The notes: generated by a model from the sequence alone, not told the origin. Positions 40,183 through 57,196 are shown, numbered from the stretch's first letter. The stretch: 57,196 bases of DNA from Clostridiales bacterium (GCA_024693205.1 JAILLJ010000080.1:1-57196), one strand, 5' to 3'. Translations and numbers: made by a program.

Positions 40183-40215
40183 ATTTTTAAACCAATCCTT
40201 TCAAAAGACGGTGAT

Positions 40216-40533
40216 TTACTGATCGGAAATAATGTCCGAACCGACAGCCTGCTCGACGAACCTGCTGACATTTTTCATTCCCATGCCCGTATTGTTTTTT
40301 ACGCCGGGAATGGGGATTATCGCGGGCATGACCGATTCGGCGTAATGCGCTGTCTCCGCGCCGAGCTGAGACGCCAGATCTTCCGTCACGAATATCACGG
40401 CGTATCCGTTGTCGGCAAGCTTTCTTATTGTACGCGACGCGCCGGCCGCGTCATCCTCCGGGAAAATGCTCATTCCTATCGAAGCAAAGCCGTATATGCT
40501 GTCTTTGTCTCCGACGACCGCGATATTATGCAT
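40216..40533 (-). CDS. ntpG: V-type ATPase subunit F
   Basis: 105 aa. IAVVGDKDSIYGFASIGM...VIFVTEDLA...PAIIPIPG matches the subunit-F pattern. Named ntpG under the Enterococcus hirae convention. Confidence 0.85.
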   Translation of the reverse strand: MHNIAVVGDKDSIYGFASIGMSIFPEDDAAGASRTIRKLADNGYAVIFVTEDLASQLGAETAHYAESVMPAIIPIPGVKNNTGMGMKNVSRFVEQAVGSDIISDQ

Positions 40534-41500: not shown

Positions 41501-41518
41501 TTTTAAGCTCTCCCGTCC

Positions 41519-42106: not shown

Positions 42107-42148
42107 ATATCGGCACTCCAAACTTTAATTTAATGATTTGTTCGGAAA

Positions 42149-42640
<492 letters not shown>

Positions 42641-44638: not shown

Positions 44639-44690
44639 ACAGTGATCCCTCCTTTTCGGAAAGCTCCGTTTATTTAGGATTTCAGCTTTT

Positions 44691-45011
44691 TCAGTTGATA
44701 AGTATTTGCGCGACGGCTTTTGTTACTTCGCTCTGTTTTTGTTCCGCGTTTTTCTTAAAGCCCATGCCCTTTTCCGCCGCCGACTTTTCCGCGGCGGCCG
44801 CCGCCTCGCGCGCCTTGACGCTCTCGGCTTCGACGATCTCTTTAGCCTTTACGAGCGCCTTATCAACAGCCGCGGCGTCAGCGTCGGCAATACGCTTTTT
44901 TGTCTCAAACAATATTTTTTCGGCTTCCTCTCTCGCCCTGTTGACAGCGTTTTCGGCGCTCTTTTCGGCAGAAAGGACTCTGTTTATCATTTCAGACGCC
45001 ACTGGTGTCAC
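44691..45011 (-). CDS. ntpF: V-type ATPase subunit G/H-like peripheral-stalk protein
   Basis: 106 aa, Ala/Glu/Lys-rich predicted single long helix; first gene of the operon as in E. hirae ntpF. The start codon is uncertain (GTG 45011, or an in-frame GTG/ATG a few codons in). Confidence 0.6.
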   Translation of the reverse strand: MTPVASEMINRVLSAEKSAENAVNRAREEAEKILFETKKRIADADAAAVDKALVKAKEIVEAESVKAREAAAAAEKSAAEKGMGFKKNAEQKQSEVTKAVAQILIN

Positions 45012-45124
45012 CGCCTTTTAATATAATCAACAAATTATAACATACATATTATTTTTTTATATTCTTTTTAGGAAACATAAGACAAAATAATTATAAAATA
45101 CACACAAGCAGATCCAAGTGTCGG

Positions 45125-45159
45125 ATAAAAAAGACCGTGACGCAAAACACGTCACGGCC
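45125..45159 (-). terminator. Rho-independent terminator of the four-paralog operon
   Basis: Minus strand: GGCCGTGACG-TGTTTTG-CGTCACGGTC followed by TTTTTTATCC. Confidence 0.8.
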
Positions 45160-45189
45160 ATGAACAGATCAAATATTAAAATATCGGGA

Positions 45190-46008
45190 TCAGAACAGTC
45201 TGAGGATCGGCGTAAGCCATGTGTCGAGCCATCTGAAGAAGAGCTCCATACGAAGCTTTCTGACCCTCAGGTTTGCGCCGTAGATGCCCATTTCGTCGTT
45301 TTCGACAGGATCGGTCTTCAGTATCTTGTCGTGGATCTTCTGATACGCGGCAAGACGGAGGTTAGCGATCTTTTTGATGAGCTTCATGAGGGGCGTGATC
45401 ATTTTCTGGAAGAATCCGACATTTTTATCGGCGATATAGTCGAGATCGTCAACGTCGTCGACTACGCCGGGGTCGGACTTGGTCTTGTTCCAAAGGCCGT
45501 AGAACGTGATGATCGTCTTACCGCCTTCACCTATCGAATACGAATCCACGACCCAGCCGACGAAGGTGTTTTCCTCGGGGAAGGGTATCGTGAAGTCTAT
45601 CGTAGCTTCGAGAGGAGTGCCGACGTTTACCGTGCTGGTGACGTCAACGACCGTATAATACTGGGTGGGTTCCTTCGTGTTATCGGAGAACGAGGTGTTG
45701 CCCTTGGGGCTGAAAGCGAGCGTATTAACGTCGGTCGCCGTCCAGGTATCGCTCGACTTGACGTCGGCGTCCGGATAATAGATGGCGGTGACGCTAAGAA
45801 GCTGAGAGATATAGATAACGTCTCCGGGTTTTATAACCGTGGCCGCTTCGTTTCCGGCGCTTATCTTATTAAGCGTTGTGAAATCGTCGTCTTCCCATAT
45901 ACGGTAGTTGTAAGGCTGTTCCGTATCCTCGGCGGCAAATCCGGCAACGGTCACAATACCCAAAATCACCGTAAGCGCAAGGAACACAGCTGTCAGTTTC
46001 TTTAACAT
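45190..46008 (-). CDS. Exported protein, paralog 4 of a tandem family (signal peptide, beta-rich core with one B-repeat-like module, long amphipathic C-terminal tail)
   Basis: Signal peptide MLKKLTAVFLALTVILGIVTVAGFA. KPGDVIYI, VTAIYYPDAD and TFVGWVVDSYSIGEGGKTIITFYGLW. The tail runs FFQKMITPLMKLIKKIANL...LFFRWLDTWLTPILRLF. Confidence 0.75.
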   Translation of the reverse strand: MLKKLTAVFLALTVILGIVTVAGFAAEDTEQPYNYRIWEDDDFTTLNKISAGNEAATVIKPGDVIYISQLLSVTAIYYPDADVKSSDTWTATDVNTLAFSPKGNTSFSDNTKEPTQYYTVVDVTSTVNVGTPLEATIDFTIPFPEENTFVGWVVDSYSIGEGGKTIITFYGLWNKTKSDPGVVDDVDDLDYIADKNVGFFQKMITPLMKLIKKIANLRLAAYQKIHDKILKTDPVENDEMGIYGANLRVRKLRMELFFRWLDTWLTPILRLF

Positions 46009-46038
46009 ATCAATTATTCATTCCTTTCACTTTAAAGA

Positions 46039-46740
46039 TTATTTTTTGTCGAATATCTTGAGTACCTTTGCCCACACGCTGAAGATCTTGGGTAAGAAGA
46101 ACAGCAGTGAATTGCCGATAAAATCATAGTACTTCGTGCGGAAGCTTACATATGCCGCGTGGAGCTTTTCTCTCGCCGCTTCTTTTTTGGTCATTTCACG
46201 CGTTGTCCAGATGGCCTCTAAGGTGACGTCGAGAGTCTTTTCGTCGTCGGTGTTGACGGCCGCTACTTTCCAGCCCGTTATCGTCGTATACTGGTAATAA
46301 GTCGTCCTGTTGTAATCGTAGTCGATATTGATCTCGCTGACGTCGGCGCTTTCGCCCTCGCTCGTCTTAAGATCAGACGCAGACTGGAAGCCCTCGTTCG
46401 TCAGCATCAGCATGACCTTGCTGCCCTGTCCGAGAACAGTATAAACGCCCTTTTTATCGCCTGTTGAAAATCCCGAGAGCTGATCTCTGAACTGTGTCAT
46501 CGGATAATCGGGGGCGTAGGTGTTGCCGAATTCGCTCGTTACGTTGGGGATATCGTCCTCGGCTATCGTATATGTAACGACGCACATAGCGGCGTTCTTC
46601 GTCGTCGCTATCGTTCCGCCGACAGGGATCTCCTGTCCGACTTCGACCTGCTGCGGGACCTCTTCCTCAGCCGCCGCCGAAACGGCGAAGCAGCCGAGTA
46701 CAACAAGTGCCGCGAGGAAAACAGATATAATTTTTTTCAT
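46039..46740 (-). CDS. Exported protein, paralog 3 of the tandem family
   Basis: Signal peptide MKKIISVFLAALVVLGCFAVSAAA. CVVTYTIAEDD and TITGWKVAAVNTDDEKTLDVTLEAIW. Tail YYDFIGNSLLFFLPKIFSVWAKVLKIFDKK. Confidence 0.75.
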   Translation of the reverse strand: MKKIISVFLAALVVLGCFAVSAAAEEEVPQQVEVGQEIPVGGTIATTKNAAMCVVTYTIAEDDIPNVTSEFGNTYAPDYPMTQFRDQLSGFSTGDKKGVYTVLGQGSKVMLMLTNEGFQSASDLKTSEGESADVSEINIDYDYNRTTYYQYTTITGWKVAAVNTDDEKTLDVTLEAIWTTREMTKKEAAREKLHAAYVSFRTKYYDFIGNSLLFFLPKIFSVWAKVLKIFDKK

Positions 46741-46812
46741 CAGAAATTATCCTCCTATTTATGCCGGCAGGCGTTTGCCGTGCCGTCTGTTATACTTATT
46801 TCAGCCGCGTCA

Positions 46813-47382
46813 TCAGAACCACATGCCGATCCTGAGGAAGAACTCGCCGATATACTTTAAGAGAAGGTCGACGAAGTGCTTTAAGTATGTGGACTTGAAG
46901 CCTTCCCAGCCCTTTGCCTCCGGGACATCCCAAACGGCGACGACGACTAACTTGTTGTAATTGCTTTCGGAATAGACGTATTTGACCTTCCAGCCCTTGA
47001 ACTCATATTCCTTTTCGCTGACAAAGTCGATCTCTCTGTCGGTCTTGTCGATCGTGTCGGCATATGTGACTGTATCGCCCATGCCCTTTATCGCGTAACC
47101 GCTCGTCTGTTCGAGATCGCAGAAGGTCGTGAAGCCGTTTTCGCTGTAGGCCTTTGCGCCGTCATCGGCGTCGTAGGTGTAGGTGATGATAAGCTGACTG
47201 CTCGCTGTGTCGTCAAGCTCGATAGTATCGCCGGGAACAAAGATAACATCCTTTTTACCCTTGTTAAAAACGGAGACCACTTCGCTCATCTTATAGTTCG
47301 TCGCCTCGGCGGAAACCGCAATGGCGGCAAAGCTGCATATCACAAGAGCAGCTAAAAATACAGATAAAGCCTTTTTGAACAT
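46813..47382 (-). CDS. Exported protein, paralog 2 of the tandem family
   Basis: Signal peptide MFKKALSVFLAALVICSFAAIAVSA. VPGDTIEL, LIITYTYDADD and EFKGWKVKYVYSESNYNKLVVVAVW. Tail GFKSTYLKHFVDLLLKYIGEFFLRIGMWF. Confidence 0.75.
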   Translation of the reverse strand: MFKKALSVFLAALVICSFAAIAVSAEATNYKMSEVVSVFNKGKKDVIFVPGDTIELDDTASSQLIITYTYDADDGAKAYSENGFTTFCDLEQTSGYAIKGMGDTVTYADTIDKTDREIDFVSEKEYEFKGWKVKYVYSESNYNKLVVVAVWDVPEAKGWEGFKSTYLKHFVDLLLKYIGEFFLRIGMWF

Positions 47383-47394
47383 GTTGTTTCCTCC

Positions 47395-48237
47395 TTAGTC
47401 AACGTTTATTTTAAAGAACTTATAAAGAACGCCCGAAAGATAACCGTCCGAAAGGAGCTTGCCGACCGCGTTTGCCGCCGTTGTAACAAGTATCGGAACG
47501 AAGGTTATGTAGTATTTCCAGTTGCTCGTATCATAGGGATTTTTTGAAGAATCAAACATGCTGAAGATCCATTCCATAAATACGATGATATCGGATTTTC
47601 TCTCCGGTCTGCCCGCCTCGGGAACTGTCTCGACCTCTTCCTCGGTAGAGGAAGCGTCTCTCGTCCAATAGGCGTAAAGCTCAAGCGTCGTGCCCGAGCC
47701 GCTGTTTGAAAGGGCTCCGACTGCCCAGCCGAGGAACTCGACGTCGTTTCCGGCGCTGTCCTTGAGGGCGAAATCTATCGGCTTTATTCCCCAGTCATAA
47801 CCCGTTATATCATATGCGGAGATGCCTTCCGATTCATAATCGGCGGAATTGAGCGAGGCAACGGTCGCTTCAAGCTCGACGGATTCCTCCGATTCAAACG
47901 AATAAACGAAGGATTTATACTTGCTCGCGCTCTCTGCAAGCGTTACGTCCTTTCCGAGAGACTCGATATAAGCTTTCCATTTGAGGTTGGTGACCTCGCC
48001 CGCGCCGGTGATGTTGATAGCGTCGGGTTTGTACGTTACGGTAAGCCTTTTGGACTTGTTTTTAAATTTAACTGTATCTCCCGGCTGAAGGATCGTAACG
48101 TCGCCTTCCTCGGTGTCCTTGATCCTGACAATGTCCTGTGACTTATACGTCGTCGACGCGTCGTCGGCATACGATCCGACGGCAAGAGCGCCGAGAGTAA
48201 GCATGACAATGAGCAGAACCGCAATAAGCTTTTTCAT
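47395..48237 (-). CDS. Exported protein, paralog 1 of the tandem family
   Basis: Signal peptide MKKLIAVLLIVMLTLGALAVGSYA (AAGGAGA RBS). QPGDTVKF, LTVTYKPDA and EFLGWAVGALSNSGSGTTLELYAYW. Tail IVFMEWIFSMF...YYITFVPILVTTAANAVGKLL...LYKFFKINVD. Confidence 0.75.
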   Translation of the reverse strand: MKKLIAVLLIVMLTLGALAVGSYADDASTTYKSQDIVRIKDTEEGDVTILQPGDTVKFKNKSKRLTVTYKPDAINITGAGEVTNLKWKAYIESLGKDVTLAESASKYKSFVYSFESEESVELEATVASLNSADYESEGISAYDITGYDWGIKPIDFALKDSAGNDVEFLGWAVGALSNSGSGTTLELYAYWTRDASSTEEEVETVPEAGRPERKSDIIVFMEWIFSMFDSSKNPYDTSNWKYYITFVPILVTTAANAVGKLLSDGYLSGVLYKFFKINVD

Positions 48238-48315
48238 TGTGATTTCTCCTTGACTGTAAATTTACACGGAAGAACCTACAAAAATAATTCAAGCAAAGTT
48301 CCCCAGATACGAATT

Positions 48316-48344
48316 ATTTTAACTCATATCGGCAAATAATGCAA
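48316..48344 (-). promoter_or_regulatory. Putative sigma-A promoter of the four-paralog operon
   Basis: Minus strand: TTGCAT - 17 nt - TAAAAT, about 75 nt upstream of ATG 48237. Confidence 0.55.
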
Positions 48345-48424
48345 TAGAATTTTAATTTTTTTGTTAAGATCGTTTAATATTTCGGCATTTTATACATCCG
48401 TATTTCTTTAAGTTTGTGTAAAAT

Positions 48425-48970
48425 CTACACATTTTGACTTGCTGTTTCGGCAATATCCGATATAGAATACATGACGGAGATAAGATTTCCGAGCGGAGAA
48501 GGCAAAAGCCGCAATATTTCGGGGAGAAACCGAGGCTTTTCTATGTCTATTATTTTGTTTCCCGTATCAAGAGTCAGGCTCTTTTCGTTCTGTATCCCGG
48601 CGACGACGGCCGTCTCCTCGCCCGTCGTCATATGCTCCGTATTTTCTCCCGCGGCGATTATCCCGCACACAGCCGCCGACACGCAAAGGCATATCAGCAT
48701 GACCGCAAGATAAGCACGTCCGATTTTAAAAGCCAATGTTCTTTCCATATATAATGACCGTCCCTTCATGTTTTTATATGTTCTTTGAGCAGCTCCGAAA
48801 GCGCTCTTCCGAGAAGTTTTCCCGATAGCTTTTTCGCCCCGCCCGTCGAGCACCTCTATCCGCGTTATCCTTATCCCGTTTTTTTCTTCCGCCTCGAGTT
48901 TTATCCCCTCGGGCGTCCCGTTTTCAAAGGCTTCGCTGCTTTCAATGGTAAGATCGGTCCTGAAATTCAT
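48425..48970 (-). CDS. Chimeric ORF: the first ~50 codons look like the N-terminus of spore germination protease GPR, fused in frame to an unrelated single-TM sequence (probable gpr remnant)
   Basis: MNFRTDLTIESSEAF...GIKLEAEEKNGIRITRIEVLDGRGEKAIGK matches the GPR N-terminal pattern (xRTDLAVE...GV.V.E....V.I..V.V...GA.A.GK) and is divergent from rpsT as in Bacillus. After IGK the expected G.Y.T.E block and the whole protease core are missing. Internal ATGs at 48769 and 48748 precede a TM segment (AYLAVMLICLCVSAAVCGIIAA). Confidence 0.5.
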   Translation of the reverse strand: MNFRTDLTIESSEAFENGTPEGIKLEAEEKNGIRITRIEVLDGRGEKAIGKTSRKSAFGAAQRTYKNMKGRSLYMERTLAFKIGRAYLAVMLICLCVSAAVCGIIAAGENTEHMTTGEETAVVAGIQNEKSLTLDTGNKIIDIEKPRFLPEILRLLPSPLGNLISVMYSISDIAETASQNV

Positions 48971-49020
48971 AACATTTCTCCTTTGATACCTTTTTAGAGT
49001 AAAAAACTTGTAAAAAGCAC

Positions 49021-49049
49021 TTGCAATTCATTTTTACATATGGTAAACT
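49021..49049 (+). promoter_or_regulatory. Putative sigma-A promoter of rpsT
   Basis: TTGCAA - 17 nt - TAAACT with TGg extended -10. Confidence 0.5.
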
Positions 49050-49062
49050 ATCTATCTGTATA

Positions 49063-49194
49063 GTAGGCGACTGCGAAAGTCCGGAGCGGTACCCCACGCC
49101 GCTCGTTGACCCGCACGTTACTATCGTAATAATTAAGGTATACGGCGTTTGGCGATAACAGCACCATCTCACCCGGGCTTTCGCGATCGCCTAC
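49063..49194 (+). promoter_or_regulatory. Highly structured 5' leader of rpsT (candidate ribosomal-protein S20 autoregulatory leader)
   Basis: A 20-bp closing helix forms between GTAGGCGACTGCGAAAGTCC (49063-49082) and GGGCTTTCGCGATCGCCTAC (49175-49194), with 1 mismatch and 2 G-U pairs. It encloses 92 nt containing at least one internal hairpin (GAGCGG/CCGCTC, 49084-49104). The SD AGGAGG lies 10-15 nt downstream. Confidence 0.45.
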
Positions 49195-49221
49195 CCCAAA
49201 CCTGAAAAGGAGGTGGCATCA

Positions 49222-49476
49222 ATGCCCAATATCAAGTCTGCAAAAAAGCGCGTTCTTGTCAACAAGTCCAAGGCAGCTCGCAACAGGTCCAGAAATTCCG
49301 CCCTTAAAACCGCTATCAAAAAGGCTCATATGGCTGCGGAAACAAATGCGGCGGATAAAGAGGAGCTTATCAAATCAGCGATCAAAAAGGTCGATCAGGC
49401 TCAGGCTAAGGGTCTTATCCATAAGAACAACGCGGCTCATAAGAAGTCCGCTCTTGCCAAGCTCATGAACGACTGA
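49222..49476 (+). CDS. rpsT: 30S ribosomal protein S20
   Basis: MPNIKSAKKRVLVNKSKAARNRS is the canonical S20 N-terminus. ATG 49222 follows AGGAGG; the ORF-track GTG at 49213 overlaps the RBS. Confidence 0.93.
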   Translation: MPNIKSAKKRVLVNKSKAARNRSRNSALKTAIKKAHMAAETNAADKEELIKSAIKKVDQAQAKGLIHKNNAAHKKSALAKLMND

Positions 49477-49508
49477 TGACGCAGTAAATAACAATGGAGG
49501 TTGTCAAT

Positions 49509-49733
49509 ATGTGTAAAGGATTCAAAAAATTTCTCAAGGTCATCGCCACAATAATCGCTATCTGCGGCGCGGCTGCGGCTGTTTATTACGCCGTCAAGAA
49601 GTATCTCGCCCGCAAGGAATGCGAATCGTGCGAGGATTTCGTCCCCTGCGAGTGCTGTGACTGCGAAGAGTGCAACGAAGAAGCAGCCCCCGAAGCAACT
49701 GCTCCCGCGGCAGAGGAAGAAAAAGCGGAATAA
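49509..49733 (+). CDS. Small membrane protein with a Cys-rich acidic tail
   Basis: 74 aa. GGAGG lies 8 nt before ATG 49509. One TM (VIATIIAICGAAAAVYYAV) then CESCEDFVPCECCDCEEC (8 Cys in 18 aa) and an acidic Ala/Pro/Glu tail. It is followed by a terminator. Confidence 0.55.
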   Translation: MCKGFKKFLKVIATIIAICGAAAAVYYAVKKYLARKECESCEDFVPCECCDCEECNEEAAPEATAPAAEEEKAE

Positions 49734-49755
49734 TCCATTTCATTATCCCTCATGA

Positions 49756-49795
49756 AAGACCGTTCCGAAAGAGCGGTCTTTTTTCTTTTTGTTTT
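49756..49795. terminator. Hairpin terminator between convergent genes (small protein on + and nagA on -)
   Basis: AAGACCGTTC-CGAAA-GAGCGGTCTT followed by TTTTTCTTTTTGTTTTT on the plus strand. Confidence 0.7.
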
Positions 49796-49907
49796 TCTTT
49801 CGCCGCCGACAAAAAACGCCTTTAATAAATCAAAAACAATATCCATATAAACACCTTATCAAATGTATTATACGGATATTGTTTGTTTCTTATCGTAAAA
49901 TATTCGG

Positions 49908-51038
49908 TCATGCCCCTGACGCGTCGAAAAATTTTCCGCGTATCATAACGGCGCGTATATTGTTTTCGCCGTCAAGGAAAAGGATATCTGCGCTTTTGCC
50001 CTTTTCGATGCTGCCCGTTATCTTATCTTTTCCGATGACTCTCGCAGGATTTATCGTACAGGATCTCAGCGCCTGTTCCTCATCTATCCCGAATGAGATG
50101 AGGTTTTTATATTCGTCGTATATGTTTGAAGTGCTCGCGGCTATCGTGCCGTCCTTAAGAAGCGCCCTGCCGTTTTTGACAAAGACCTCCGTTCCGCCGA
50201 GCGTATATGTCCCGTCGGGACATCCCGCCGCCTTCATGGCGTCGCTTATGACTACCGTTCTGTCCCTGCCCAATAGCCTAAACGACGATCTTATAAGCGA
50301 AGGGTGGACGTGAAATCCGTCGCAGATAAATTCAGCCGTCACGGTCTTTGAGTCGAACACCGCGGGTATTATGCCGGGCGCTCTCTGTGAAACGGGCGTC
50401 ATGGCGTTGAAAAGATGCGTCGCGTGAGAAAATCCGCTCTCAAAGCCCTTTACCGCCTCGTCGTAGGAGGCGGCGGTATGAGCCGCGGAGACGGTACAGA
50501 CCTTTGACGCTTCCCTTGCAAATTCACATGCCCCCGAAACTTCGGGCGCGACGTCGACAAGCACAATATCGCAGACCGAGGCGAGGGACAAAAACTCACC
50601 TATGTCGGGCTTCCTTATAAATCTTTCGTCCTGCGCGCCCTTCTTTTCATAGGAGATATAGGGGCCTTCCATGTTCACTCCGTGGATATATGCTCCCTTT
50701 TCTTTTCCGATATATGCTTTGACGGCGCCGAGCTGACTTAAAAGCGCGTCATGCGGAGACGTCATCGTCGTCGGGCAAAACGAGGTTATTCCGCGCTTCG
50801 CAAGCTCGAACGACATCTTTTCGAGCGACTTTTCCGAAGCGTCGTCGACGTCACCGCCGCCGAAGCCGTGGATATGGACGTCGATAAATCCGGGAACCGC
50901 CGTACAGCCCGAAAAATCGACGGTGTCGTCACCGTCGATCGTTTCGCTTATTTCGGAGATCAGCCCTTTTTCGATCAAAAGGGCTGTCCTTCTTTTTTTA
51001 AAATCGCCGCAGACTACGGCAGCGTTTTTGATTATCAT
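49908..51038 (-). CDS. nagA: N-acetylglucosamine-6-phosphate deacetylase
   Basis: PGFIDVHIHGFGG metal-binding motif, HLFNAM and ISDAM blocks, 376 aa. It starts 4 nt after the proS stop. Confidence 0.88.
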   Translation of the reverse strand: MIIKNAAVVCGDFKKRRTALLIEKGLISEISETIDGDDTVDFSGCTAVPGFIDVHIHGFGGGDVDDASEKSLEKMSFELAKRGITSFCPTTMTSPHDALLSQLGAVKAYIGKEKGAYIHGVNMEGPYISYEKKGAQDERFIRKPDIGEFLSLASVCDIVLVDVAPEVSGACEFAREASKVCTVSAAHTAASYDEAVKGFESGFSHATHLFNAMTPVSQRAPGIIPAVFDSKTVTAEFICDGFHVHPSLIRSSFRLLGRDRTVVISDAMKAAGCPDGTYTLGGTEVFVKNGRALLKDGTIAASTSNIYDEYKNLISFGIDEEQALRSCTINPARVIGKDKITGSIEKGKSADILFLDGENNIRAVMIRGKFFDASGA

Positions 51039-51042
51039 GGGA

Positions 51043-52482
51043 TCAATACGCCTTTCCCCAATATACCATATGCTTTGCGGGCTTTCCGCAGCATACGCAC
51101 GTGTCGGAGATATGCTCCTGCTGAAGCGGTATACAGCGCGTTCCGACGCCGGTCAGCTCCTTGACCTTATCTTCGCAAGCCTCGTCGCCGCACCACATGG
51201 CCTTTATGAATCCGTCGCCGTTTTCGGCAAGAGAAGCGTTAATCTCGTCGACGGTCTTGCAGGCGTAAGTCCTGTTTTCGAGGTTTTTGAGCGCCTTATT
51301 ATAGATAGAAGTCGCAAGCTCCTTCAAAAGTCTTTCGATCTCAGACTCGATATTATCAAGCGGGACGAAGGTCTTTTCCCTGTTGTCGCGCCTTACTAAA
51401 ACGCACTGGTTCTTTTCGATATCCTTAGGCCCTATCTCAATGCGGAGCGGCACGCCCTTCATCTCGTATTCGGAGAATTTCCATCCGGGCGAATTGTCGG
51501 AATCGTCGATCTTTACCCTGAATTTTTCTTTCAGTCTTTCGGTAAGCTCATTTGCCTTTTCGAGAACGCCGGCCTTATGCTGAGCCACGGGGATGACGAC
51601 GACCTGAACGGGAGCCACCGCGGGCGGCAGGACAAGTCCGTTGTTGTCACCGTGGGACATGATAATGGCGCCGATGAGCCTTGTCGTAACGCCCCACGAA
51701 GTCTGATGAACGTACTGGAGCGTATTGTTTTTATCGGAATACTGTATGCCGAAAGCCTTGGCGAAGCCGTCGCCGAAATAATGTGACGTTCCCGCCTGGA
51801 GCGCCTTGCCGTCATGCATAAGCGCTTCGATGGCGTATGTCGAAACAGCGCCGGCAAACTTGTCGCTCTCGGTCTTTTTGCCCTTTATCACGGGCATACA
51901 GAGGTCGTCCTCGCAAAAATCGGCGTAGACGTTCAGCATACGCTCCGTCTCCTCCACCGCGTCCTCGGCAGTTGCGTGGACGGTATGTCCCTCCTGCCAG
52001 AGAAATTCTCTCGAACGAAGGAACGGACGCGTGGTCTTTTCCCATCTAACGACGGAGCACCACTGATTGTAAAGCTTGGGAAGATCCCTGTACGAATGAA
52101 CTATATTGGCGTAATGCTCGCAGAAGAGCGTCTCGGATGTAGGCCTTACGCAGAGACGCTCCTGTAACTCCTCGCTGCCGCCGTGTGTGACCCATGCTAC
52201 CTCGGGAGCGAAGCCCTCGACGTGATCCTTTTCTTTTTCGAGCAGGCTTTCGGGGATGAACATCGGCATATAGACGTTTTCATGTCCCGTCGCCTTAAAA
52301 CGCGCGTCAAGGTCGTTTTTGATGTTTTCCCATATGGCAAATCCGTAGGGACGTATGACCATACATCCCTTGACGCTCGAGTAGTCGATAAGATCGGCCT
52401 TTTTAACTATATCGGTATACCATTGAGCAAAATCGACCTCCATCGAGGTGATCTCCTCAACCATTTTCTTTTGTTCTGCCAA
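51043..52482 (-). CDS. proS: Prolyl-tRNA synthetase (archaeal/eukaryote-like short form)
   Basis: [34 protein letters not shown]-terminus, class II motifs, and a C-terminal Zn-type domain ending YWGKAY. TTG 52482 lies 8 nt after AAGGAAG; the alternative ATG 52464 has no SD; the ORF-track ATG 52548 adds a non-homologous extension. Confidence 0.9.
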
Positions 52483-52506
52483 AGCTGTTTCTTCCTTTCG
52501 GGGTTG

Positions 52507-52671
52507 TAGGCAACGCCGCACGATCGGGGTGTGCGGATTGCGAAGCAAGATTTTTCGTCAGGTTGTGCAAAAAGAACGCAGGTTTGCTGTCGCAAGTCAA
52601 GAGATTTTTGTGCAACATGACGGAATAATATTCGAGCAAGACGTACACCGCGACTTGTGCGGTGTTGCCTA
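52507..52671. repeat. Imperfect palindrome of ~165 bp filling the acpP-proS spacer (MITE-like element or long RNA hairpin)
   Basis: Terminal arms are TAGGCAACGCCGCAC (52507-52521) and GTGCGGTGTTGCCTA (52657-52671). Each arm has its own small hairpin (CCGCAC/GTGCGG; CACCGC/GCGGTG). Inner arms also mirror each other: TCGTCAGGTTGTGCAAAAAG against the reverse complement CCGTCATGTTGCACAAAAAT. Confidence 0.65.
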
Positions 52672-53064: not shown

Positions 53065-53093
53065 TTGACAAACGCATTTTCATATAATAGAAT
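53065..53093 (+). promoter_or_regulatory. Putative sigma-A promoter of the T-box leader
   Basis: TTGACA - 17 nt - TAGAAT, divergent from the acpP promoter. Confidence 0.6.
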
Positions 53094-53099
53094 ACATAG

Positions 53100-53390
53100 C
53101 ACATAATAAAATTTCAAATGCAGTGACGGAACTATGCTTTTCCGCTTTTCCCAAGAGAGCCGGCGGTCGGTGCGAGCCGGTGTGCGGCGTAAAAGCAGTC
53201 TCATTCCCGAGCAGGGTCCCCTAAAGCGACCGTCCGGCTTCGTGTATAAGGGATCACGGCTTGCCCCGTTACCAAGGCAGAGGGCTTTATCGAGCTCTTT
53301 AAAGAGGCCGTTCTTGCGGCAATGCGGGTGGTACCGCGGTATTTTCATATCGTCCCGAAGTTTTTGCTTCGGAACGTTATTTTTTTTACC
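53100..53390 (+). promoter_or_regulatory. T-box riboswitch leader, probable Leu specifier (CUC)
   Basis: Stem I elements are AGAGAG (53154-59) and distal-loop GGTGCGA (53169-75). The specifier loop is flanked by GGAA/TTCC and TGCTTTT/AAAAGCA helices and reads GUCUCA, i.e. CUC at 53200-02 followed by A. F-box CCGTTA is at 53266-71 and the T-box GGGTGGTACCGCG at 53326-38. The terminator CGTCCCGAAG/CTTCGGAACG plus T8 spans 53351-53387. Confidence 0.85.
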
Positions 53391-53407: not shown

Positions 53408-54814
53408 ATGAAAACGATCAAAATTTACGACATGACGCTGAGAGAGGGAGCGGATATCCTTTTGAGCTTCCGCGAAAAGATCGACACGGCAAAACAGCTC
53501 GACAGGCTTAACGTCGACGTTATCGAGATGGCGGGAGCAACGAGCGAAAAATCAGACGAGCTGCTTATTAAATCCATCGCCTCCGTTCTTAAAAACAGCA
53601 TCCTCTCCGTCTCCGTCGGATATTCCGAAAAGGATGCGGACAAGGCGTACAGTGCCGTCTGCGGAGCGAAAAAGCCGAGACTTCATGTTATTCTCCCCGT
53701 ATCGGCAGTACAGATGGAATATATAACCCACAAAAAGCCCGCTAAAATGCTTGAGCTTATATCATCCCTCGTCTCTCACTGCGCGTCTCTTTGCCCGGAC
53801 GTTGAGTTTTCCGCCGCCGACGCGACGAGAGCCGACAGGGATTTCCTTAAAAAAGCGGTGAACGCCGCGATAGAATCGGGAGCCAAGACAGTCACCTTCT
53901 GCGACTCGACCGGCACGATGCTCCCCGCCGAAACAGCGGAGTTCTTAAAGGAGCTTAAAGCTGAGATCCCCGCTCTCTGTGAAGTTGACTGCGGTATGCA
54001 GTGCAGTAACGAGATCAAAATGGCTGCTGCCTGCGCCTTCGCGTCCGTCGACGGCGGTGCAAACATAATCAAGACGACCGTTTGCGGCGCTTCGACCCCG
54101 ACGCTCGACGCCGTAGGACATACCATTCACGTCAGAGGCGACTCGCTCGGCATCAAATGTAAGCTTAAAATGACGGAGCTCAGTTCCGTCATGAAGCAGC
54201 TTATCTCCCACGCGAAGGAAAAGCGCAGCGAAACGTCTCCCTTCGACAACGGCGTAAACGAGCTTGCCGGAAGCGAAGATATTTCATTCGACAGCACCGC
54301 GACGCGCCGCGATATCATAAGAGCCGTCAAAAAGCTCGGATATTCTTTCTCCGAGGACGACAACGCCAAGATATACGAGGCGTTCATGCGCGTCGCCAAC
54401 AAGAAACAGCATGTCGGCGGAAAAGAGCTTGAGGCGATCATCGCAAGCTCCGCGTTACAGGTGCCGCCGACATATAAGCTCATAAATTACGTCATAAACA
54501 GCGGCAACATCATCTCCCCGACGGCAATGATAACTCTCGAAAAGAATGGCGAGATATTAAAGGGTCTCAGCACCGGCGACGGCCCCATCGACGCCTCATT
54601 CCTCGCGATAGAACAGATAACCGGTCACCACTACGAGCTCGACGACTTCCAGATACAGGCAGTGACAGAGGGACGAGAGGCCATGGGCGACGCTCTGATA
54701 AGGCTCCGCTCCGACGGCGTACTCTATTCCGGCAAGGGCATTTCGACGGACATCATCGGCGCGAGCATAAGAGCCTACGTCAACGCCCTCAATAAGATAG
54801 TATACGAAGAATAA
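53408..54814 (+). CDS. 2-isopropylmalate/citramalate synthase-like protein (DRE-TIM fold plus LeuA-dimer regulatory domain) with degenerate catalytic motifs
   Basis: Overall collinear with LeuA: IYDMTLREGAD aligns with DTTLRDGEQ, DVEFSAADATRA with DVEFS.EDA.R, and CDSTGT with DTVG. The C-terminus HHYELDDFQIQAVTEGREAMGDALIRL...GKGISTDIIGASIRAYVNALNKI is the LeuA_dimer domain. The H.H metal motif position reads EVDCGMQCSNE. Confidence 0.7.
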   Translation: MKTIKIYDMTLREGADILLSFREKIDTAKQLDRLNVDVIEMAGATSEKSDELLIKSIASVLKNSILSVSVGYSEKDADKAYSAVCGAKKPRLHVILPVSAVQMEYITHKKPAKMLELISSLVSHCASLCPDVEFSAADATRADRDFLKKAVNAAIESGAKTVTFCDSTGTMLPAETAEFLKELKAEIPALCEVDCGMQCSNEIKMAAACAFASVDGGANIIKTTVCGASTPTLDAVGHTIHVRGDSLGIKCKLKMTELSSVMKQLISHAKEKRSETSPFDNGVNELAGSEDISFDSTATRRDIIRAVKKLGYSFSEDDNAKIYEAFMRVANKKQHVGGKELEAIIASSALQVPPTYKLINYVINSGNIISPTAMITLEKNGEILKGLSTGDGPIDASFLAIEQITGHHYELDDFQIQAVTEGREAMGDALIRLRSDGVLYSGKGISTDIIGASIRAYVNALNKIVYEE

Positions 54815-54857
54815 TCGCTCACTACTACCTTACAGATCATCCGAAGGGAGAAAAAAG

Positions 54858-57196
54858 ATGAAGCTTTCATTCTCAACAAACGGCTGGAACGAATTCAGCT
54901 GGCGTGAATTTTATTCCTTAGCCAAGGATCTCGGCTTTGACGGCATAGAGATCCACAATGTCGGCAGCGACGTTTTCGGCGGAAGAGAAAATCCGTTCAG
55001 CGACGCATTTTTAGCCGAAACGGCGCGGAAAATGCGCGAGCTCGATCTCAAGATACCGTGTATAGATACGGTCTGTGATATAGCCGACATGTCGAAGCTC
55101 ACCGAAAACTGTGTTGAAATAGAAGAAAACATCGAGGCGGCAGTCGCTCTCGGTTCGCCCTATATCCGTATTTACGCCTCAAAGCAGGACGGAAAGACGA
55201 GCGAGGAGGAGGACGCCGCAGTTGAGGAACATCTTAAAAAGATGCTTCCGGTCGCGATCGACGCGGGAGTTACTCTTCTTATCGAGACGGTAGGAATTTA
55301 CGCCGACACAACGCGCCTTTGCGACGTCCTTAATTTATTCGCGTCCGATTATTTAGGCGCTCTCTGGGATCTTCACCATCCCTACAGGTTCTTTGACGAA
55401 AGCGCCGAAAAGACGGTACAGAACCTCGGAGCATATATAAAGCATGTCCATGTCAAGGATTCCGAAACGGTAGACGGCGAGACGCGCTACTGCCTTATGG
55501 GCGAGGGCACCTTACCTATAGACGAAATGCTGTTCGCTCTCCGTTCCGTAAATTACGACGGATTCATCTCGTTTGAGTGGATACCCTCATGGATAGAGGC
55601 TCTCAGCGACAGCGGTATAGTTTTCCCCCATTTCATAAATTACATGAGCCGCTTCGACGAAAACTCCGGCACTCACGACACGCTTTATACAAACAAGGCG
55701 GGCGACGGCAAATACGTCTGGCCCAAGGAAAAAATAATCAGATACACCTTTTCACAGGTGCTTGACAAGATGGTCGAGGAATTTCCCGATCAGTACGCCT
55801 TTAAATACACGACGCTCGACTACACGAGGACTTATTCCGAATTCCGCGACGACGTCGACACATTCTGTCGCTCGCTGATAGCCCTCGGCGTAAAGCCCGG
55901 CGATCATGTCGCCGTATGGGCGACGAATGTGCCGCAGTGGTACCTTGCGTTCTGGTCTGCGGCCAAGATAGGCGCAGTCCTCGTAACGGTCAATACGGCT
56001 TATAAGATACACGAAGCGGAATATCTGCTCCGCCAGTCCGACACGCATACCCTTATAATGATAGACGGCGCGCTCGACTCGGACTATGTGGCGATAATCA
56101 ACGAGCTTTGTCCGGAGCTTAAAAATTCCGTGCCCGGTCAGCCGCTCCACTGCCGCAGGCTCCCGTTCCTCCGCAACGTGATAACGGTAGATTCGAGACA
56201 GGACGGCTGTCTCACATGGGACGACGCTCTGGCGCTCGCAAACAAGGTGCCTATTGAGGAGGTCTACCGCCGCGCCGCCGCAGTCGATATCCACGACGTC
56301 TGCAACATGCAGTACACCTCCGGCACGACGGGCTTCCCGAAGGGCGTTATGCTTACTCACAATAACGTCGTAAACAACGGCAAGCTCATCGGCGACAGGA
56401 TGGAGCTTTCGACAGCCGACAGGATGATGATACAGGTACCGATGTTCCATTGTTTCGGCATGGTCCTTGCCATGACCGCCTCGATGACACACGGCGCCAC
56501 GATATGCCCCATCCCCTACTTTTCCGCAAAATCCTCCCTCGCATGTATAAACCAGGAGAGGATAACCGCCTTCCACGGCGTACCGACGATGTTTATAGCC
56601 ATGATGGAGCATGAGGATTTCCCGAAGACTGATTTTTCATATATGCGTACAGGCATCATGGCGGGCAGCACCTGCCCCGAATCTCTTATGCGTCTTGCCG
56701 CAGAAAAAATGCATATGGTCGGTATAACGAGCGTTTACGGCCAGACCGAGGCCTCGCCCGGATGTACGATGAGCGACTGGGAGGACTCGATAGATCTCCG
56801 CACAGGTACTGTCGGACGCGCGTTTTACGGCGTCGAATGCAAGATAGTCGATCCGAACACAAACGAGGAGCTCCCCGACGGTGAAAACGGCGAATTCGTC
56901 GCGCGCGGATACAACCTGATGAAGGGCTACTATAAAATGCCTCAGGCGACGAAGGCCGCCATCGACAGCGACGGATGGCTCCATACGGGCGACCTCGCAT
57001 GCCGTCTGCCGAACGGATATTACCGCATAACGGGCAGACTGAAGGACATGATAATCCGCGGCGGTGAAAACATATATCCGAAGGAGATCGAGGAATTTAT
57101 ACTTACCCATCCGAAGGTCTCCGACGTCCAGGTCATCGGCGTTCCCGATGAGCAGTACGGCGAAGAGATCATGGCGGTCGTCATCGTCAAGGAGGG
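54858..57196 (+). CDS. Fusion protein: xylose-isomerase-like TIM-barrel (sugar-phosphate isomerase/epimerase family) domain plus AMP-dependent acyl-CoA synthetase/ligase; 3' end outside the window
   Basis: This ORF is not in the supplied track because it has no stop in the window. I translated frame 3 codon by codon through 55862 (past the domain junction) and read the remainder continuously to the window end, finding no stop across 779 codons. AAGGGAG RBS precedes ATG 54858. The N-terminus reads MKLSFSTNGWNEFSW...DGIEIH...LLIET...HVHVKD...ISFEW (AP_endonuc_2/IolE-like). From about aa 290 it reads FSQVLDKMVEEFPDQYAF...YTSGTTGFPKGVMLTHNN...YGQTE...TGDL...GRLKDMIIRGGENIYPKEIE (AMP-binding). Confidence 0.85.
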   Translation, partial: MKLSFSTNGWNEFSWREFYSLAKDLGFDGIEIHNVGSDVFGGRENPFSDAFLAETARKMRELDLKIPCIDTVCDIADMSKLTENCVEIEENIEAAVALGSPYIRIYASKQDGKTSEEEDAAVEEHLKKMLPVAIDAGVTLLIETVGIYADTTRLCDVLNLFASDYLGALWDLHHPYRFFDESAEKTVQNLGAYIKHVHVKDSETVDGETRYCLMGEGTLPIDEMLFALRSVNYDGFISFEWIPSWIEALSDSGIVFPHFINYMSRFDENSGTHDTLYTNKAGDGKYVWPKEKIIRYTFSQVLDKMVEEFPDQYAFKYTTLDYTRTYSEFRDDVDTFCRSLIALGVKPGDHVAVWATNVPQWYLAFWSAAKIGAVLVTVNTAYKIHEAEYLLRQSDTHTLIMIDGALDSDYVAIINELCPELKNSVPGQPLHCRRLPFLRNVITVDSRQDGCLTWDDALALANKVPIEEVYRRAAAVDIHDVCNMQYTSGTTGFPKGVMLTHNNVVNNGKLIGDRMELSTADRMMIQVPMFHCFGMVLAMTASMTHGATICPIPYFSAKSSLACINQERITAFHGVPTMFIAMMEHEDFPKTDFSYMRTGIMAGSTCPESLMRLAAEKMHMVGITSVYGQTEASPGCTMSDWEDSIDLRTGTVGRAFYGVECKIVDPNTNEELPDGENGEFVARGYNLMKGYYKMPQATKAAIDSDGWLHTGDLACRLPNGYYRITGRLKDMIIRGGENIYPKEIEEFILTHPKVSDVQVIGVPDEQYGEEIMAVVIVKE

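What the first reader, a model, noticed from the sequence alone, without database searches (positions are those of the whole stretch)
54858..57196. Long ORF missing from the ORF track: TIM-barrel isomerase-like domain fused to an acyl-CoA ligase, under Leu T-box control
- **The ORF (seen):** a frame opens at ATG 54858 (AAGGGAG RBS) and stays open to the last base of the window, 779 codons so far.
- **Why the track misleads:** the supplied track shows only antisense shadow ORFs here (55752-56612 and 56637-57110 on the minus strand).
- **Domain content:** the first ~285 aa are a xylose-isomerase-like TIM barrel (AP endonuclease 2 / IolE-type). The rest is a complete-looking AMP-binding adenylating enzyme with YTSGTTGFPKG, YGQTE, TGDL and GRLKDMIIRGGENIYP.
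- **Evidence for a real fusion:** ligase homology (IIRYTFSQVLDKMVEEFPDQYAF) begins before the only nearby internal ATG at 55770. This reads as a genuine fusion and not two adjacent genes.
- **Transcription unit:** it lies 43 nt after the LeuA-like gene, so it probably shares the Leu T-box transcript.
- **Hypothesis (inference):** ruminal and gut anaerobes are known to make leucine by reductive carboxylation of isovalerate, which first needs activation to the CoA thioester. A ligase induced by uncharged tRNA-Leu would fit that route. The fused TIM barrel and the degenerate LeuA-like partner have no obvious role in it, so this may be a different, undescribed pathway.
Basis: partly seen in the sequence, partly recalled or inferred. 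Interest (0 to 1): 0.62.

Follow-up and report, generated by a model that had tools for sequence, protein, structure and literature searches.

The report
Leucine-starvation-induced branched-acid CoA ligase fusion
A real, widely conserved two-domain enzyme (a sugar-isomerase-like barrel fused to an acyl-CoA ligase) that gut and sediment Clostridia switch on when leucine runs short, and which most likely starts the long-known but genetically undefined route that turns isovalerate into leucine.

Summary
Window 54858-57196 (+) is one open frame of 779 codons, cut by the window end; full-length relatives are about 840 aa. It encodes a xylose-isomerase-like TIM barrel fused to an AMP-forming acyl-CoA ligase.

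- **Fusion:** it is a single ORF in every untruncated relative but one among the 87 related loci examined. At least 545 species genomes carry a relative of the N-domain.
- **Regulation:** a Leu T-box precedes the operon in the window (specifier CUC at 53200-53202). All 114 leaders read in related loci carry a Leu codon (CUC, CUG or CUU). All 15 neighbouring control T-boxes read other codons at the fixed offset.
- **Pathway context:** in several lineages the same operon also holds a branched-chain aminotransferase and a four-subunit VorB-type 2-oxoacid:ferredoxin oxidoreductase. Together these make the full enzyme set for isovalerate to isovaleryl-CoA to 2-oxoisocaproate to leucine.
- **Partner gene:** the upstream "LeuA-like" gene is a pseudoenzyme. 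Its catalytic metal ligands are lost and its leucine-binding regulatory domain is highly conserved. It is always followed by the fusion.

The role of the fused TIM barrel, which has an intact and invariant active site, remains unexplained. No paper on this system was found.

The parts
53065..53093 (+). Sigma-70-type promoter-like site, TTGACA-17 nt-TAGAAT (11 of 12 matches), just upstream of the T-box leader
   Evidence: a consensus scan only; 6 such sites found against 2.2 expected in the region
53102..53216 (+). T-box Stem I, with the specifier codon CUC (Leu) at 53200-53202 followed by a purine (A)
   Evidence: Rfam alignment. Own Stem I covariance model R1 scores 82.6 bits, E 2.5e-17. Specifier read.
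53114..53360 (+). T-box leader as matched by Rfam RF00230; includes the T-box core GGGUGGUACCGCG at 53326-53338
   Evidence: 99.1 bits, gathering score 93; sequence
53355..53388 (+). Intrinsic terminator of the T-box: hairpin CCGAAG-UUUUUG-CUUCGG at 53355-53372, then AACGUUAUUUUUUUU
53408..54814 (+). LeuA pseudoenzyme (468 aa). It has an HMGL-like barrel with the catalytic metal ligands replaced (LRDGEQ reads LREGAD; HCHND reads QCSNE) and a strongly conserved LeuA_dimer regulatory domain.
   Evidence: It is always followed by the fusion: 72 of 72 loci with enough downstream sequence.
54815..54857 (+). 43-nt intergenic spacer with RBS AAGGGAG (54844-54850); no terminator predicted
54858..55652 (+). 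N-terminal xylose-isomerase-like TIM-barrel domain of the fusion (aa 1-265). E31, E143, D171, E181, D201 and E240 are invariant in both alignments; C68, R104, H174 and H198 are invariant across 84 species and at least 90% conserved in the second alignment.
   Evidence: Pfam; alignments; AlphaFold model with pLDDT 89.6; Foldseek
55653..55733 (+). Conserved inter-domain linker (aa 266-292). G284 is invariant in both large alignments; N279 and W288 are invariant in one and at least 90% conserved in the other; K290 is at least 90% conserved in both.
   Evidence: modelled with low confidence
55734..57196 (+). AMP-forming acyl-CoA ligase domain (aa 293-779), cut by the window end about 60 codons before the stop. 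Motifs YTSGTTGFPKG, YGQTE, TGD and GRLKDMIIRGGENIYP are present.
   Evidence: The full-length relative L001 (78% identical overall) aligns end to end with a stand-alone ligase at 56% identity over 549 aa.

Best explanation
**What it is.** The ORF encodes a genuine bifunctional protein of about 840 aa: a metal-dependent xylose-isomerase-like TIM barrel fused to an AMP-forming acyl-CoA ligase. In the window it is the second gene of an operon transcribed from a promoter at about 53065-53093.

**How it is controlled.** The operon is gated by a leucine-specific T-box riboswitch. When tRNA-Leu is uncharged, it pairs with the CUC specifier and stabilises the antiterminator. Transcription then reads through the terminator at 53355-53388 into the LeuA-like gene and the fusion. 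The parts of this switch are shown in the sequence; its operation follows from the established T-box mechanism.

**What it most likely does (inferred from context).** The ligase domain most likely activates isovalerate to isovaleryl-CoA. Isovalerate is abundant in the rumen and gut habitat of this organism. A VorB-type 2-oxoacid:ferredoxin oxidoreductase then reductively carboxylates isovaleryl-CoA to 4-methyl-2-oxopentanoate. A branched-chain aminotransferase converts that to leucine. This is a leucine salvage or biosynthesis route that is switched on by leucine starvation.

**The partner gene (inferred, speculative).** The upstream LeuA paralog is catalytically dead but keeps the leucine-binding regulatory domain. 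I propose it is a leucine-sensing regulatory subunit that gives the ligase end-product feedback. This would resemble HisZ, a dead HisRS paralog that regulates HisG.

**What is unresolved.** The fused TIM barrel has an intact, invariant active site and is surely an enzyme, but its reaction is unknown. The simple three-step scheme does not need it.
For: **Fusion**
- One ORF in all 87 related loci, from many families of Clostridia.

**T-box**
- Rfam hit above the gathering score in the window and in L001, L004 and L005.
- The T-box is kept in front of the fusion even where the LeuA-like gene is absent, as in Dehalobacter and Petroclostridium.
- Specifier in genome loci: CUC in 53 and CUG in 5.
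- Specifier in independent metagenome loci: CUC 36, CUG 19, CUU 1.
- The switching between synonymous Leu codons argues for selection on Leu specificity.
- The 15 other T-boxes found by the same model in these loci read UUC, AUC, AUG or GAA at the fixed offset.

**Pathway context**
- L013 has, behind one CUC T-box, nine tightly packed genes: pseudo-LeuA, fusion, IlvE (NCBIfam BCAT equivalog, 501.9 bits against a cutoff of 307), a P-loop NTPase, a 2x[4Fe-4S] delta subunit, VorB alpha (PRK07119, 527.6 bits against a cutoff of 399), beta, gamma and a cupin-domain HTH protein.
- L124, L162, L135/L136, L163 and L168 have the same set with the OFOR block first.
- IlvE alone follows the fusion in L006, L036, L042, L137 and L141.

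**Ligase**
- Its best NCBIfam match is the PRK12583 fatty-acid CoA ligase subfamily.

**Habitat**
- Bovine and sheep gut metagenomes.

**Pseudo-LeuA**
- Catalytic residues are lost in 11 of 11 orthologs and the regulatory domain is the most conserved part.
- The fusion follows it in 72 of 72 loci that have room downstream.

**Precedent**
- A dedicated short branched-chain acyl-CoA synthetase is known: MbcS of S. aureus (PMC10026030).
- Reductive carboxylation of isovalerate to leucine in rumen bacteria is established physiology. I know this from the work of Allison and co-workers; it also appears among the search terms matched in PMC7356843, which I did not read.
Against: - No biochemical data exist. 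The acid substrate is inferred only from regulation and gene neighbourhood.
- The ligase domain scores below the NCBIfam subfamily cutoff (690 bits against 832). It has no close solved or characterised relative.
- The OFOR genes are co-operonic in only about 7-9 of roughly 165 loci. In most genomes the fusion stands alone.
- About 25 of 83 genome loci lack a detectable T-box. A divergent clade (L091) has none.
- The proposed three-step pathway gives no role to the conserved TIM-barrel active site. That may mean the true substrate or chemistry is different.
- In the window's own clade the downstream gene is an extended-SDR "epimerase", not ilvE.
- In L124 and L162 the specifier register is ambiguous between CUG and GAA.
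- Transcript evidence is a single 265-nt metatranscriptome contig.
Confidence: 0.6

Rival explanations
1. Leucine sparing rather than leucine synthesis. The ligase makes isovaleryl-CoA from external isovalerate as a primer for iso-branched fatty acids, as MbcS does in S. aureus. Scarce leucine then need not be degraded for membrane lipid synthesis.
For: - A Leu T-box would also make sense for a leucine-sparing function.
- Most loci are stand-alone ligase genes without OFOR or ilvE.
- MbcS is a precedent (PMC10026030, PMC11167679).
Against: - It does not explain the repeated operon linkage with a VorB-type OFOR and a BCAT behind the same Leu T-box. Running in the oxidative direction, those enzymes would consume leucine during leucine starvation.
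- It does not explain a partner that retains a leucine-binding regulatory domain.
- The two functions are not mutually exclusive.
Confidence: 0.15
2. The fusion carries out a different, undescribed two-step reaction. The TIM barrel isomerises, epimerises or dehydrates a keto or hydroxy acid next to a carbonyl, and the ligase activates the same molecule. The result is a leucine precursor made from a substrate other than isovalerate.
For: - The TIM-barrel active site is strongly conserved: E31, E143, D171, E181, D201 and E240 are invariant in both large alignments, and C68, R104, H174 and H198 are invariant in one and at least 90% conserved in the other.
- The fusion is universal in the family.
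- The linker is conserved.
- In Anaerotruncus a stand-alone TIM barrel (about 33% identical to the window N-domain) and an orthologous ligase (56% identical to the L001 fusion) lie 2 kb apart on the same strand.
- Structural relatives all abstract a proton alpha to a metal-bound carbonyl (plus general knowledge of that superfamily).
Against: - No candidate substrate or reaction can be named from the data.
- More remote stand-alone relatives sit in sugar-utilisation clusters without a ligase.
- The OFOR and BCAT context already forms a complete pathway without an extra step.
Confidence: 0.17
3. A generic fatty-acid CoA ligase for fatty-acid uptake or degradation, as the database names suggest; the T-box association is incidental.
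For: - Sources name it "AMP-binding protein", "fatty-acyl-CoA synthase" or "long-chain-fatty-acid--CoA ligase".
- The best NCBIfam hits are fatty-acid ligase families.
Against: - 114 of 114 leaders read carry Leu codons, across distant lineages and with synonymous switching.
- No beta-oxidation genes recur nearby.
- The recurrent partners are all leucine-related.
Confidence: 0.03
4. Two adjacent genes wrongly joined by a sequencing or assembly error near 55700-55770.
For: None was found. One relative (L074) is split into 666 aa plus 163 aa, but at a different place.
Against: - The frame is continuous in the window and in 87 independent loci from different assemblies.
- Ligase homology begins upstream of the only nearby ATG.
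Confidence: 0.01

Closest known systems
MbcS (SAUSA300_2542), the short branched-chain acyl-CoA synthetase of Staphylococcus aureus
   Same: It is an AMP-forming ligase that activates exogenous isovalerate, isobutyrate and 2-methylbutyrate to their CoA thioesters (PMC10026030). This is the same proposed first step.
   Different: - MbcS is a single-domain protein that feeds fatty-acid synthesis.
- No T-box control, TIM-barrel fusion or LeuA-like partner came up for it in the search results seen here; the papers were not read.
- Sequence relatedness to MbcS was not tested here.
Reductive carboxylation of branched-chain volatile fatty acids to branched-chain amino acids in rumen anaerobes (acyl-CoA, then VOR-type 2-oxoacid:ferredoxin oxidoreductase, then BCAT)
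   Same: The operons in L013 and L124 encode exactly this enzyme set behind a Leu T-box. The window organism lives in the ruminant gut.
   Different: - The classical pathway is defined physiologically. To my knowledge, and in the library searched, the activating enzyme in Clostridia has no assigned gene.
- The classical scheme has no TIM-barrel step and no LeuA-like component.
T-box-regulated ilv-leu and leuS genes (Leu T-box with a CUC specifier, for example the B. subtilis ilv-leu operon)
   Same: Same riboswitch class, same CUC specifier and the same terminator/antiterminator logic. The B. subtilis CUC precedent is Marta et al. 1996, cited in PMC2494555.
   Different: The controlled genes are not the canonical leuABCD, ilv or leuS genes. 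They are a ligase fusion and a LeuA pseudoenzyme. This target did not turn up in term searches of the two T-box regulon surveys I could open.
HisZ, the catalytically dead HisRS paralog that is the histidine-sensing regulatory subunit of ATP phosphoribosyltransferase
   Same: It is an analogy for the LeuA pseudoenzyme. A paralog of a pathway enzyme has lost catalysis but kept a ligand-binding function, and is encoded next to the enzyme it would regulate.
   Different: This is an analogy only. No interaction or leucine binding has been shown here, and the protein families are different.
Xylose-isomerase-like TIM-barrel enzymes (ketose 3-epimerases, UlaE, IolI, YcjR, Art22, AsbF, C-glycoside deglycosidase DgpB-C)
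   Same: Same fold and the same E-D-H-E metal-site pattern.
   Different: - Identity is only 13-22% and TM-scores are 0.62-0.75.
- None of the solved relatives listed is fused to an ANL ligase, and none is described as linked to amino-acid metabolism.

Membership tests
ANL superfamily, AMP-forming acyl-CoA ligase (PF00501 + PF13193) | Pfam AMP-binding domain above the gathering score | tested here: met
   300.8 bits against a cutoff of 29.9. The C-terminal domain scores 32.7 bits against 24.5 although truncated.
ANL superfamily, AMP-forming acyl-CoA ligase (PF00501 + PF13193) | Core motifs: A3 (T/S)SG(T/S)TGxPKG, A5 YGxTE, A7 TGD, A8 GRxKD, and the A10 catalytic Lys | tested here: met
   YTSGTTGFPKG, YGQTE, TGDL and GRLKDMIIRGGENIYP are in the window. 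A10 lies beyond the window end but is present in the full-length relative L001 as AGKILKYK.
ANL superfamily, AMP-forming acyl-CoA ligase (PF00501 + PF13193) | Thioester-forming activity with CoA, and identity of the acid substrate | not testable with these tools
   Needs an enzyme assay.
NCBIfam NF009233 (PRK12583) fatty acid CoA ligase subfamily | Whole-protein score at or above the curated cutoff of 832 bits | tested here: not met
   604 bits for the truncated window copy. 690 bits for the full-length L001 ligase domain and 752 bits for the stand-alone Anaerotruncus ortholog. It is the nearest family, but the protein is not a member by NCBI's threshold.
Xylose isomerase-like TIM barrel (PF01261, AP_endonuc_2) | Pfam score above the gathering score | tested here: met
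   103.4 bits against a cutoff of 31.1, aa 21-242.
Xylose isomerase-like TIM barrel (PF01261, AP_endonuc_2) | (beta/alpha)8 fold matching solved members | tested here: met
   Model pLDDT 89.6. Foldseek probability 1.00 and TM-scores 0.62-0.75 to 3tva, 8z1i, 3wqo, 3cqi, 1i60, 6wn6 and 3dx5.
Xylose isomerase-like TIM barrel (PF01261, AP_endonuc_2) | Conserved Glu-Asp-His-Glu divalent-metal site | tested here: inconclusive
   E143, D171 and E240 are invariant in both large alignments; H198 is invariant across 84 species and at least 90% conserved in the other. Their spacing matches ketose 3-epimerases (my knowledge). The 3-D superposition of ligands was not inspected and metal binding was not measured.
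T-box leader (RF00230), Leu-specific | Covariance-model score above Rfam's gathering score | tested here: met
   99.1 bits against 93 in the window. L001 scores 106.8, L005 109.5 and L004 95.5.
T-box leader (RF00230), Leu-specific | Specifier codon for Leu at the fixed position in the Stem I specifier loop, followed by a purine | tested here: met
   CUC-A at 53200-53203. All 114 related leaders read carry CUC, CUG or CUU. Control T-boxes read other codons.
T-box leader (RF00230), Leu-specific | T-box core sequence plus a mutually exclusive terminator and antiterminator | tested here: met
   GGGUGGUACCGCG at 53326-53338, and a terminator hairpin with U-run at 53355-53388. The antiterminator pairing was taken from the Rfam alignment and not tested separately.
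T-box leader (RF00230), Leu-specific | tRNA-Leu-dependent antitermination | not testable with these tools
   Needs in vitro transcription or a reporter assay.
2-isopropylmalate synthase (LeuA), considered for the upstream partner 53408-54814 | Score above the equivalog cutoffs | tested here: not met
   Best score is 309.5 bits against a cutoff of 532 (NF002086); all leuA models are below cutoff.
2-isopropylmalate synthase (LeuA), considered for the upstream partner 53408-54814 | Catalytic metal ligands: the Asp of LRDGEQ and the HxH motif | tested here: not met
   LREGAD and QCSNE in the window, compared with LRDGEQ and HCHND in solved LeuA 3rmj and 3ewb. The ligands are lost in all 11 orthologs.
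2-isopropylmalate synthase (LeuA), considered for the upstream partner 53408-54814 | C-terminal LeuA_dimer allosteric domain | tested here: met
   PF08502, 110.5 bits against a cutoff of 24.9. It is the most conserved region across orthologs.

The most novel reading that the evidence does not exclude
The system is more than "ligase + VOR + BCAT". Two further readings remain open.

1. The invariant TIM-barrel active site may catalyse an undescribed reaction on a branched keto or enol acid or its CoA ester. That reaction would be integral to anaerobic leucine formation from volatile fatty acids.
2. The LeuA pseudoenzyme may be a new kind of leucine-sensing regulatory subunit, analogous to HisZ, that imposes end-product feedback on an acyl-CoA ligase.

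Together with the T-box, this would give two layers of leucine control: charged tRNA at the level of transcription and free leucine at the level of enzyme activity.
Probability: 0.3. Interest if true: 0.85.

Novelty: new variant of a known kind. Interest (0 to 1): 0.7.

Why it matters
- **An old question becomes testable.** Rumen and gut anaerobes have been known since the 1960s to need or use isovalerate and other "isoacids" to make branched-chain amino acids, and isoacids are fed to cattle for that reason. The gene that activates isovalerate in Clostridia has not been pinned down, and the pathway is usually inferred only from the presence of generic oxidoreductases. This family gives a specific, widespread genetic marker, found in at least 545 species genomes, with a built-in regulatory signature (the Leu T-box).
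- **Practical uses.** It would allow isoacid-dependent leucine synthesis to be annotated in gut, rumen, digester and sediment metagenomes. It also corrects a systematic mis-annotation as "long-chain fatty-acid CoA ligase".
- **Open mechanistic questions.** What does a fully conserved isomerase-type barrel do on a CoA ligase? Is a dead LeuA that keeps its leucine-binding domain a feedback sensor?

Tried and rejected
- **Strict T-box regex.** A regex for the core GGGUGGUACCGCG found only the LeuA-linked loci. Stand-alone loci use GAGUGGUACC(G/A)CG. I replaced the regex with a covariance model.
- **Stem I regex and column reading.** Both were brittle. I replaced them with a fixed-offset rule: the codon starts 9 nt before the K-turn GAG.
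- **Loci without a model hit.** Rfam at the gathering threshold found no T-box or other riboswitch in their leaders. L011 and L017 look like eroded T-boxes. In L124-type loci Rfam also missed leaders that do have a clear core and terminator.
- **Structure.** A 33-sequence alignment gave pLDDT 89.6.
- **Fold and sequence comparison.** Foldseek and PDB sequence searches place the N-domain only at superfamily level. The ligase has no close solved relative.
- **Neighbour census.** Among genome loci, nothing recurred except the LeuA-like gene and ilvE. The OFOR linkage appeared only after I sampled metagenome loci through the pseudo-LeuA.
- **Stand-alone TIM-barrel relatives.** The Anaerotruncus locus has an orthologous ligase nearby but no T-box. 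Another relative sits in a sugar-utilisation cluster, so that lead is inconclusive.
- **Transcripts.** One metatranscriptome run yielded a single 265-nt contig, which says nothing about co-transcription.
- **Literature.** Six searches found no paper on this fusion or on a T-box-controlled acyl-CoA ligase. Vitreschak et al. 2008 was not available.
- **Single-sequence folding.** The MFE fold of the window Stem I does not reproduce the canonical structure (z-score +1.47). I rely on the covariance-model evidence instead.
- **The extended SDR downstream in the window's clade.** I considered it as a pathway member. I rejected it as core because it occurs only in that clade and looks like a nucleotide-sugar epimerase.


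Full report
**1.
- Translating window 54858-57196 (+) gives 779 codons without a stop, running off the window end. An AAGGGAG ribosome-binding site lies 7 nt before the ATG.
- The ORF list for the region shows only antisense and short ORFs. That tool omits ORFs that reach the end of the sequence, which explains the "missing" gene. The two long antisense ORFs match no Pfam family.
- Pfam assigns a xylose-isomerase-like TIM barrel (aa 21-242, 103 bits), an AMP-binding domain (aa 304-692, 301 bits) and the start of AMP-binding_C.
- The only nearby internal ATG (55770) is codon 305. Ligase homology starts at aa 293-295. A separate ligase gene starting at that ATG would therefore lack its N-terminus.

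**2. The fusion is real and widespread.**
- A search of 5.8 billion proteins returned, among the best 120 clusters, only proteins of 831-865 aa at 67-81% identity, besides the window's own truncated entry. All have the same three Pfam domains.
- They come from Oscillospiraceae, Ruminococcus, Lachnospiraceae, Dehalobacter, Petroclostridium and others.
- A scan of one genome per species found at least 545 genomes with a relative of the N-domain.
- In all 87 loci fetched, the two domains are one ORF. The exceptions are four copies cut by contig ends and one probable frameshift, L074.
- Sources name the protein only "AMP-binding protein" or "fatty-acyl-CoA synthase".

**3. The Leu T-box is the most robust feature.**
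- Rfam finds one T-box in the window, at 53114-53360, above the gathering score.
- Its anatomy is complete:
  - a near-consensus promoter at 53065-53093;
  - Stem I with CUC-A at 53200-53203;
  - the core GGGUGGUACCGCG at 53326-53338;
  - a terminator hairpin with U-run at 53355-53388;
  - then an RBS and the ATG at 53408.
- T-boxes also precede the fusion in Dehalobacter and Petroclostridium, where the LeuA-like gene is absent.
- I built a covariance model of Stem I from 36 leaders and searched all loci with it.
  - 58 of 83 genome loci with enough upstream sequence have a hit in the leader.
  - 54 independent metagenome loci have 56 hits.
- I read the triplet at a fixed offset from the K-turn GAG. 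The genome set gives CUC 53 and CUG 5. The metagenome set gives CUC 36, CUG 19 and CUU 1. All are leucine codons.
- The same model also picked up 15 other T-boxes in the flanks. One lies upstream of pheST and reads UUC. At the fixed offset the others read AUC (11), AUG (1) and GAA (2), so none reads a Leu codon. The column is therefore being read correctly, and the Leu codon is specific to this operon.
- About 25 genome loci lack a recognisable T-box; some show eroded remnants. A divergent clade has none.

**4. The upstream partner is a LeuA pseudoenzyme.**
- The 468-aa ORF at 53408-54814 has HMGL-like and LeuA_dimer domains, but it scores below every LeuA equivalog cutoff.
- Aligned to solved LeuA, the metal and substrate motif LRDGEQ reads LREGAD, and the metal-binding HCHND reads QCSNE.
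- In all 11 orthologs examined, the Asp and both His are replaced by assorted residues. The C-terminal regulatory domain is the most conserved part.
- A metagenome scan with this protein gave 80 loci. In all 72 with at least about 270 nt of downstream sequence, the fusion gene follows, usually after 9-12 nt.
- The pseudoenzyme is thus an obligate partner of the fusion in one large clade, which includes the window.
- I infer a leucine-sensing regulatory role by analogy with HisZ. This is untested.

**5. Pathway context.**
- Among genome loci, the only recurrent neighbours were the pseudo-LeuA and, in four loci, a class-IV aminotransferase. That aminotransferase passes the BCAT equivalog cutoff.
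- The metagenome loci showed more. In L124 a T-box leader is followed, on one strand and tightly packed, by:
  - a P-loop NTPase;
  - a 68-aa 2x[4Fe-4S] delta subunit;
  - OFOR alpha, beta and gamma;
  - IlvE;
  - the pseudo-LeuA;
  - the fusion.
- L162, L135/L136, L163 and L168 share this order.
- In the genome-derived L013 (a horse-gut Clostridia MAG), a single CUC T-box is followed by pseudo-LeuA, fusion, IlvE (501.9 bits against 307), a P-loop NTPase, delta, alpha, beta and gamma. The alpha subunit passes the VorB cutoff (527.6 bits against 399).
- The window organism occurs in bovine and sheep gut metagenomes, where isovalerate is abundant.

**6. What remains unexplained.**
- The N-domain active site is strongly conserved. 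E31, E143, D171, E181, D201 and E240 are invariant in both large alignments. C68, R104, H174 and H198 are invariant across 84 species and at least 90% conserved in the second alignment.
- A confident model (pLDDT 89.6) matches ketose 3-epimerases, UlaE, IolI, YcjR, Art22, AsbF and C-glycoside deglycosidases. The match is only at superfamily level: TM-scores 0.62-0.75 and 13-22% identity.
- To my knowledge, these enzymes abstract a proton next to a metal-bound carbonyl. The three-step pathway needs no such step.
- Stand-alone relatives at 29-39% identity exist. One, in Anaerotruncus, lies 2 kb from an orthologous stand-alone ligase that is 56% identical to the L001 fusion's ligase domain. Another sits in a sugar-utilisation cluster.
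- The ligase domain is nearest to NCBIfam PRK12583 but below its cutoff. It has no close solved relative.
- In the window's own clade, the gene after the fusion is an extended-SDR "epimerase", 14-36 nt downstream in L092 and L001. Its relevance is unclear.

**7. Verdict.**
- The ORF, the fusion and the Leu T-box control are established by sequence and comparative evidence.
- The function, activation of isovalerate as the first step of leucine-starvation-induced reductive-carboxylation synthesis of leucine, is a well-supported inference (confidence about 0.6). It has not been demonstrated.
- No paper describing this system was found.
- I rate it a new variant of a known kind. It is a known enzyme class and a known physiological pathway. 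What is undescribed is the conserved architecture: the fused TIM barrel, the pseudoenzyme partner and the T-box regulon membership.

Noticed in passing
window 53408-54814 (+): The first gene after the T-box is a LeuA paralog that has lost the catalytic Asp and the HxH metal ligands but keeps a very conserved LeuA_dimer (leucine-binding) domain. It is a pseudoenzyme and is always followed by the fusion gene.
   Followed up: yes
L013 10560-11291; L124 537-1193; L135 about 585 onward: A small CbiA/MinD/ParA-like P-loop NTPase gene is conserved just before the OFOR delta subunit in the Leu T-box operons. It may be an Fe-S cluster or maturation factor for the oxidoreductase. It has no NCBIfam match.
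   Followed up: partly
L100 4421-4535 and 4698-4812; L101 likewise: Two Stem I hits lie in tandem, both with a CUC specifier, upstream of the pseudo-LeuA. These appear to be tandem Leu T-boxes.
   Followed up: no
L145, L155, L158, L160 at 9003-9120; L113 5154-5269; L139 9013-9132; L172 4657-4772: An Ile-specific T-box (AUC) sits directly after the fusion gene in several loci. It presumably controls the next gene; in L091 an ileS-type synthetase lies a few genes downstream of the fusion.
   Followed up: no
L011 6480-7000; L017 6480-7000: The leaders of the fusion gene in Dehalobacter sp. 4CP and Anaerobacterium chartisolvens keep a terminator-like hairpin resembling that of related T-boxes. They lack a recognisable Stem I or T-box core, so they look like decayed T-boxes.
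   Followed up: partly
L001 12559-13521; L092 9515-10495; L093 11397-12386 (expected just past the window end): In the window's closest relatives, an extended-SDR gene follows the fusion. Its best NCBIfam hit is TviC/UDP-sugar 4-epimerase, below cutoff. The gap is only 14-36 nt in two of them, so it is probably co-transcribed.
   Followed up: partly
L088 4253-8816 (Anaerotruncus colihominis): A stand-alone ortholog of the ligase and a stand-alone relative of the TIM barrel lie on the same strand, separated by a PASTA-domain Ser/Thr kinase gene. There is no T-box.
   Followed up: partly
L070 1-6548: Upstream of the fusion in this Ruminococcaceae contig are OFOR alpha, beta and gamma genes and two further, distantly related AMP-binding ligase genes (23-26% identity).
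   Followed up: no
L093 7637-7900 (-): A PhdYeFM-family antitoxin gene is inserted on the opposite strand between the pseudo-LeuA and the fusion in one relative.
   Followed up: no
L074 3102-5624: The fusion gene is split into 666-aa and 163-aa ORFs. This is a probable frameshift or pseudogene in that MAG.
   Followed up: no
window 38410-52548 (-): Upstream on the opposite strand are prolyl-tRNA synthetase (51043-52548), an amidohydrolase (49908-51038), several ORFs without Pfam matches, and V/A-type ATPase subunit genes (38410-44638).
   Followed up: no
L084 8532-8778 (-); L017 2877-2988 (-): Rfam hits unrelated to the finding: a HEARO RNA and a ZMP/ZTP riboswitch in the flanks of related loci.
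   Followed up: no
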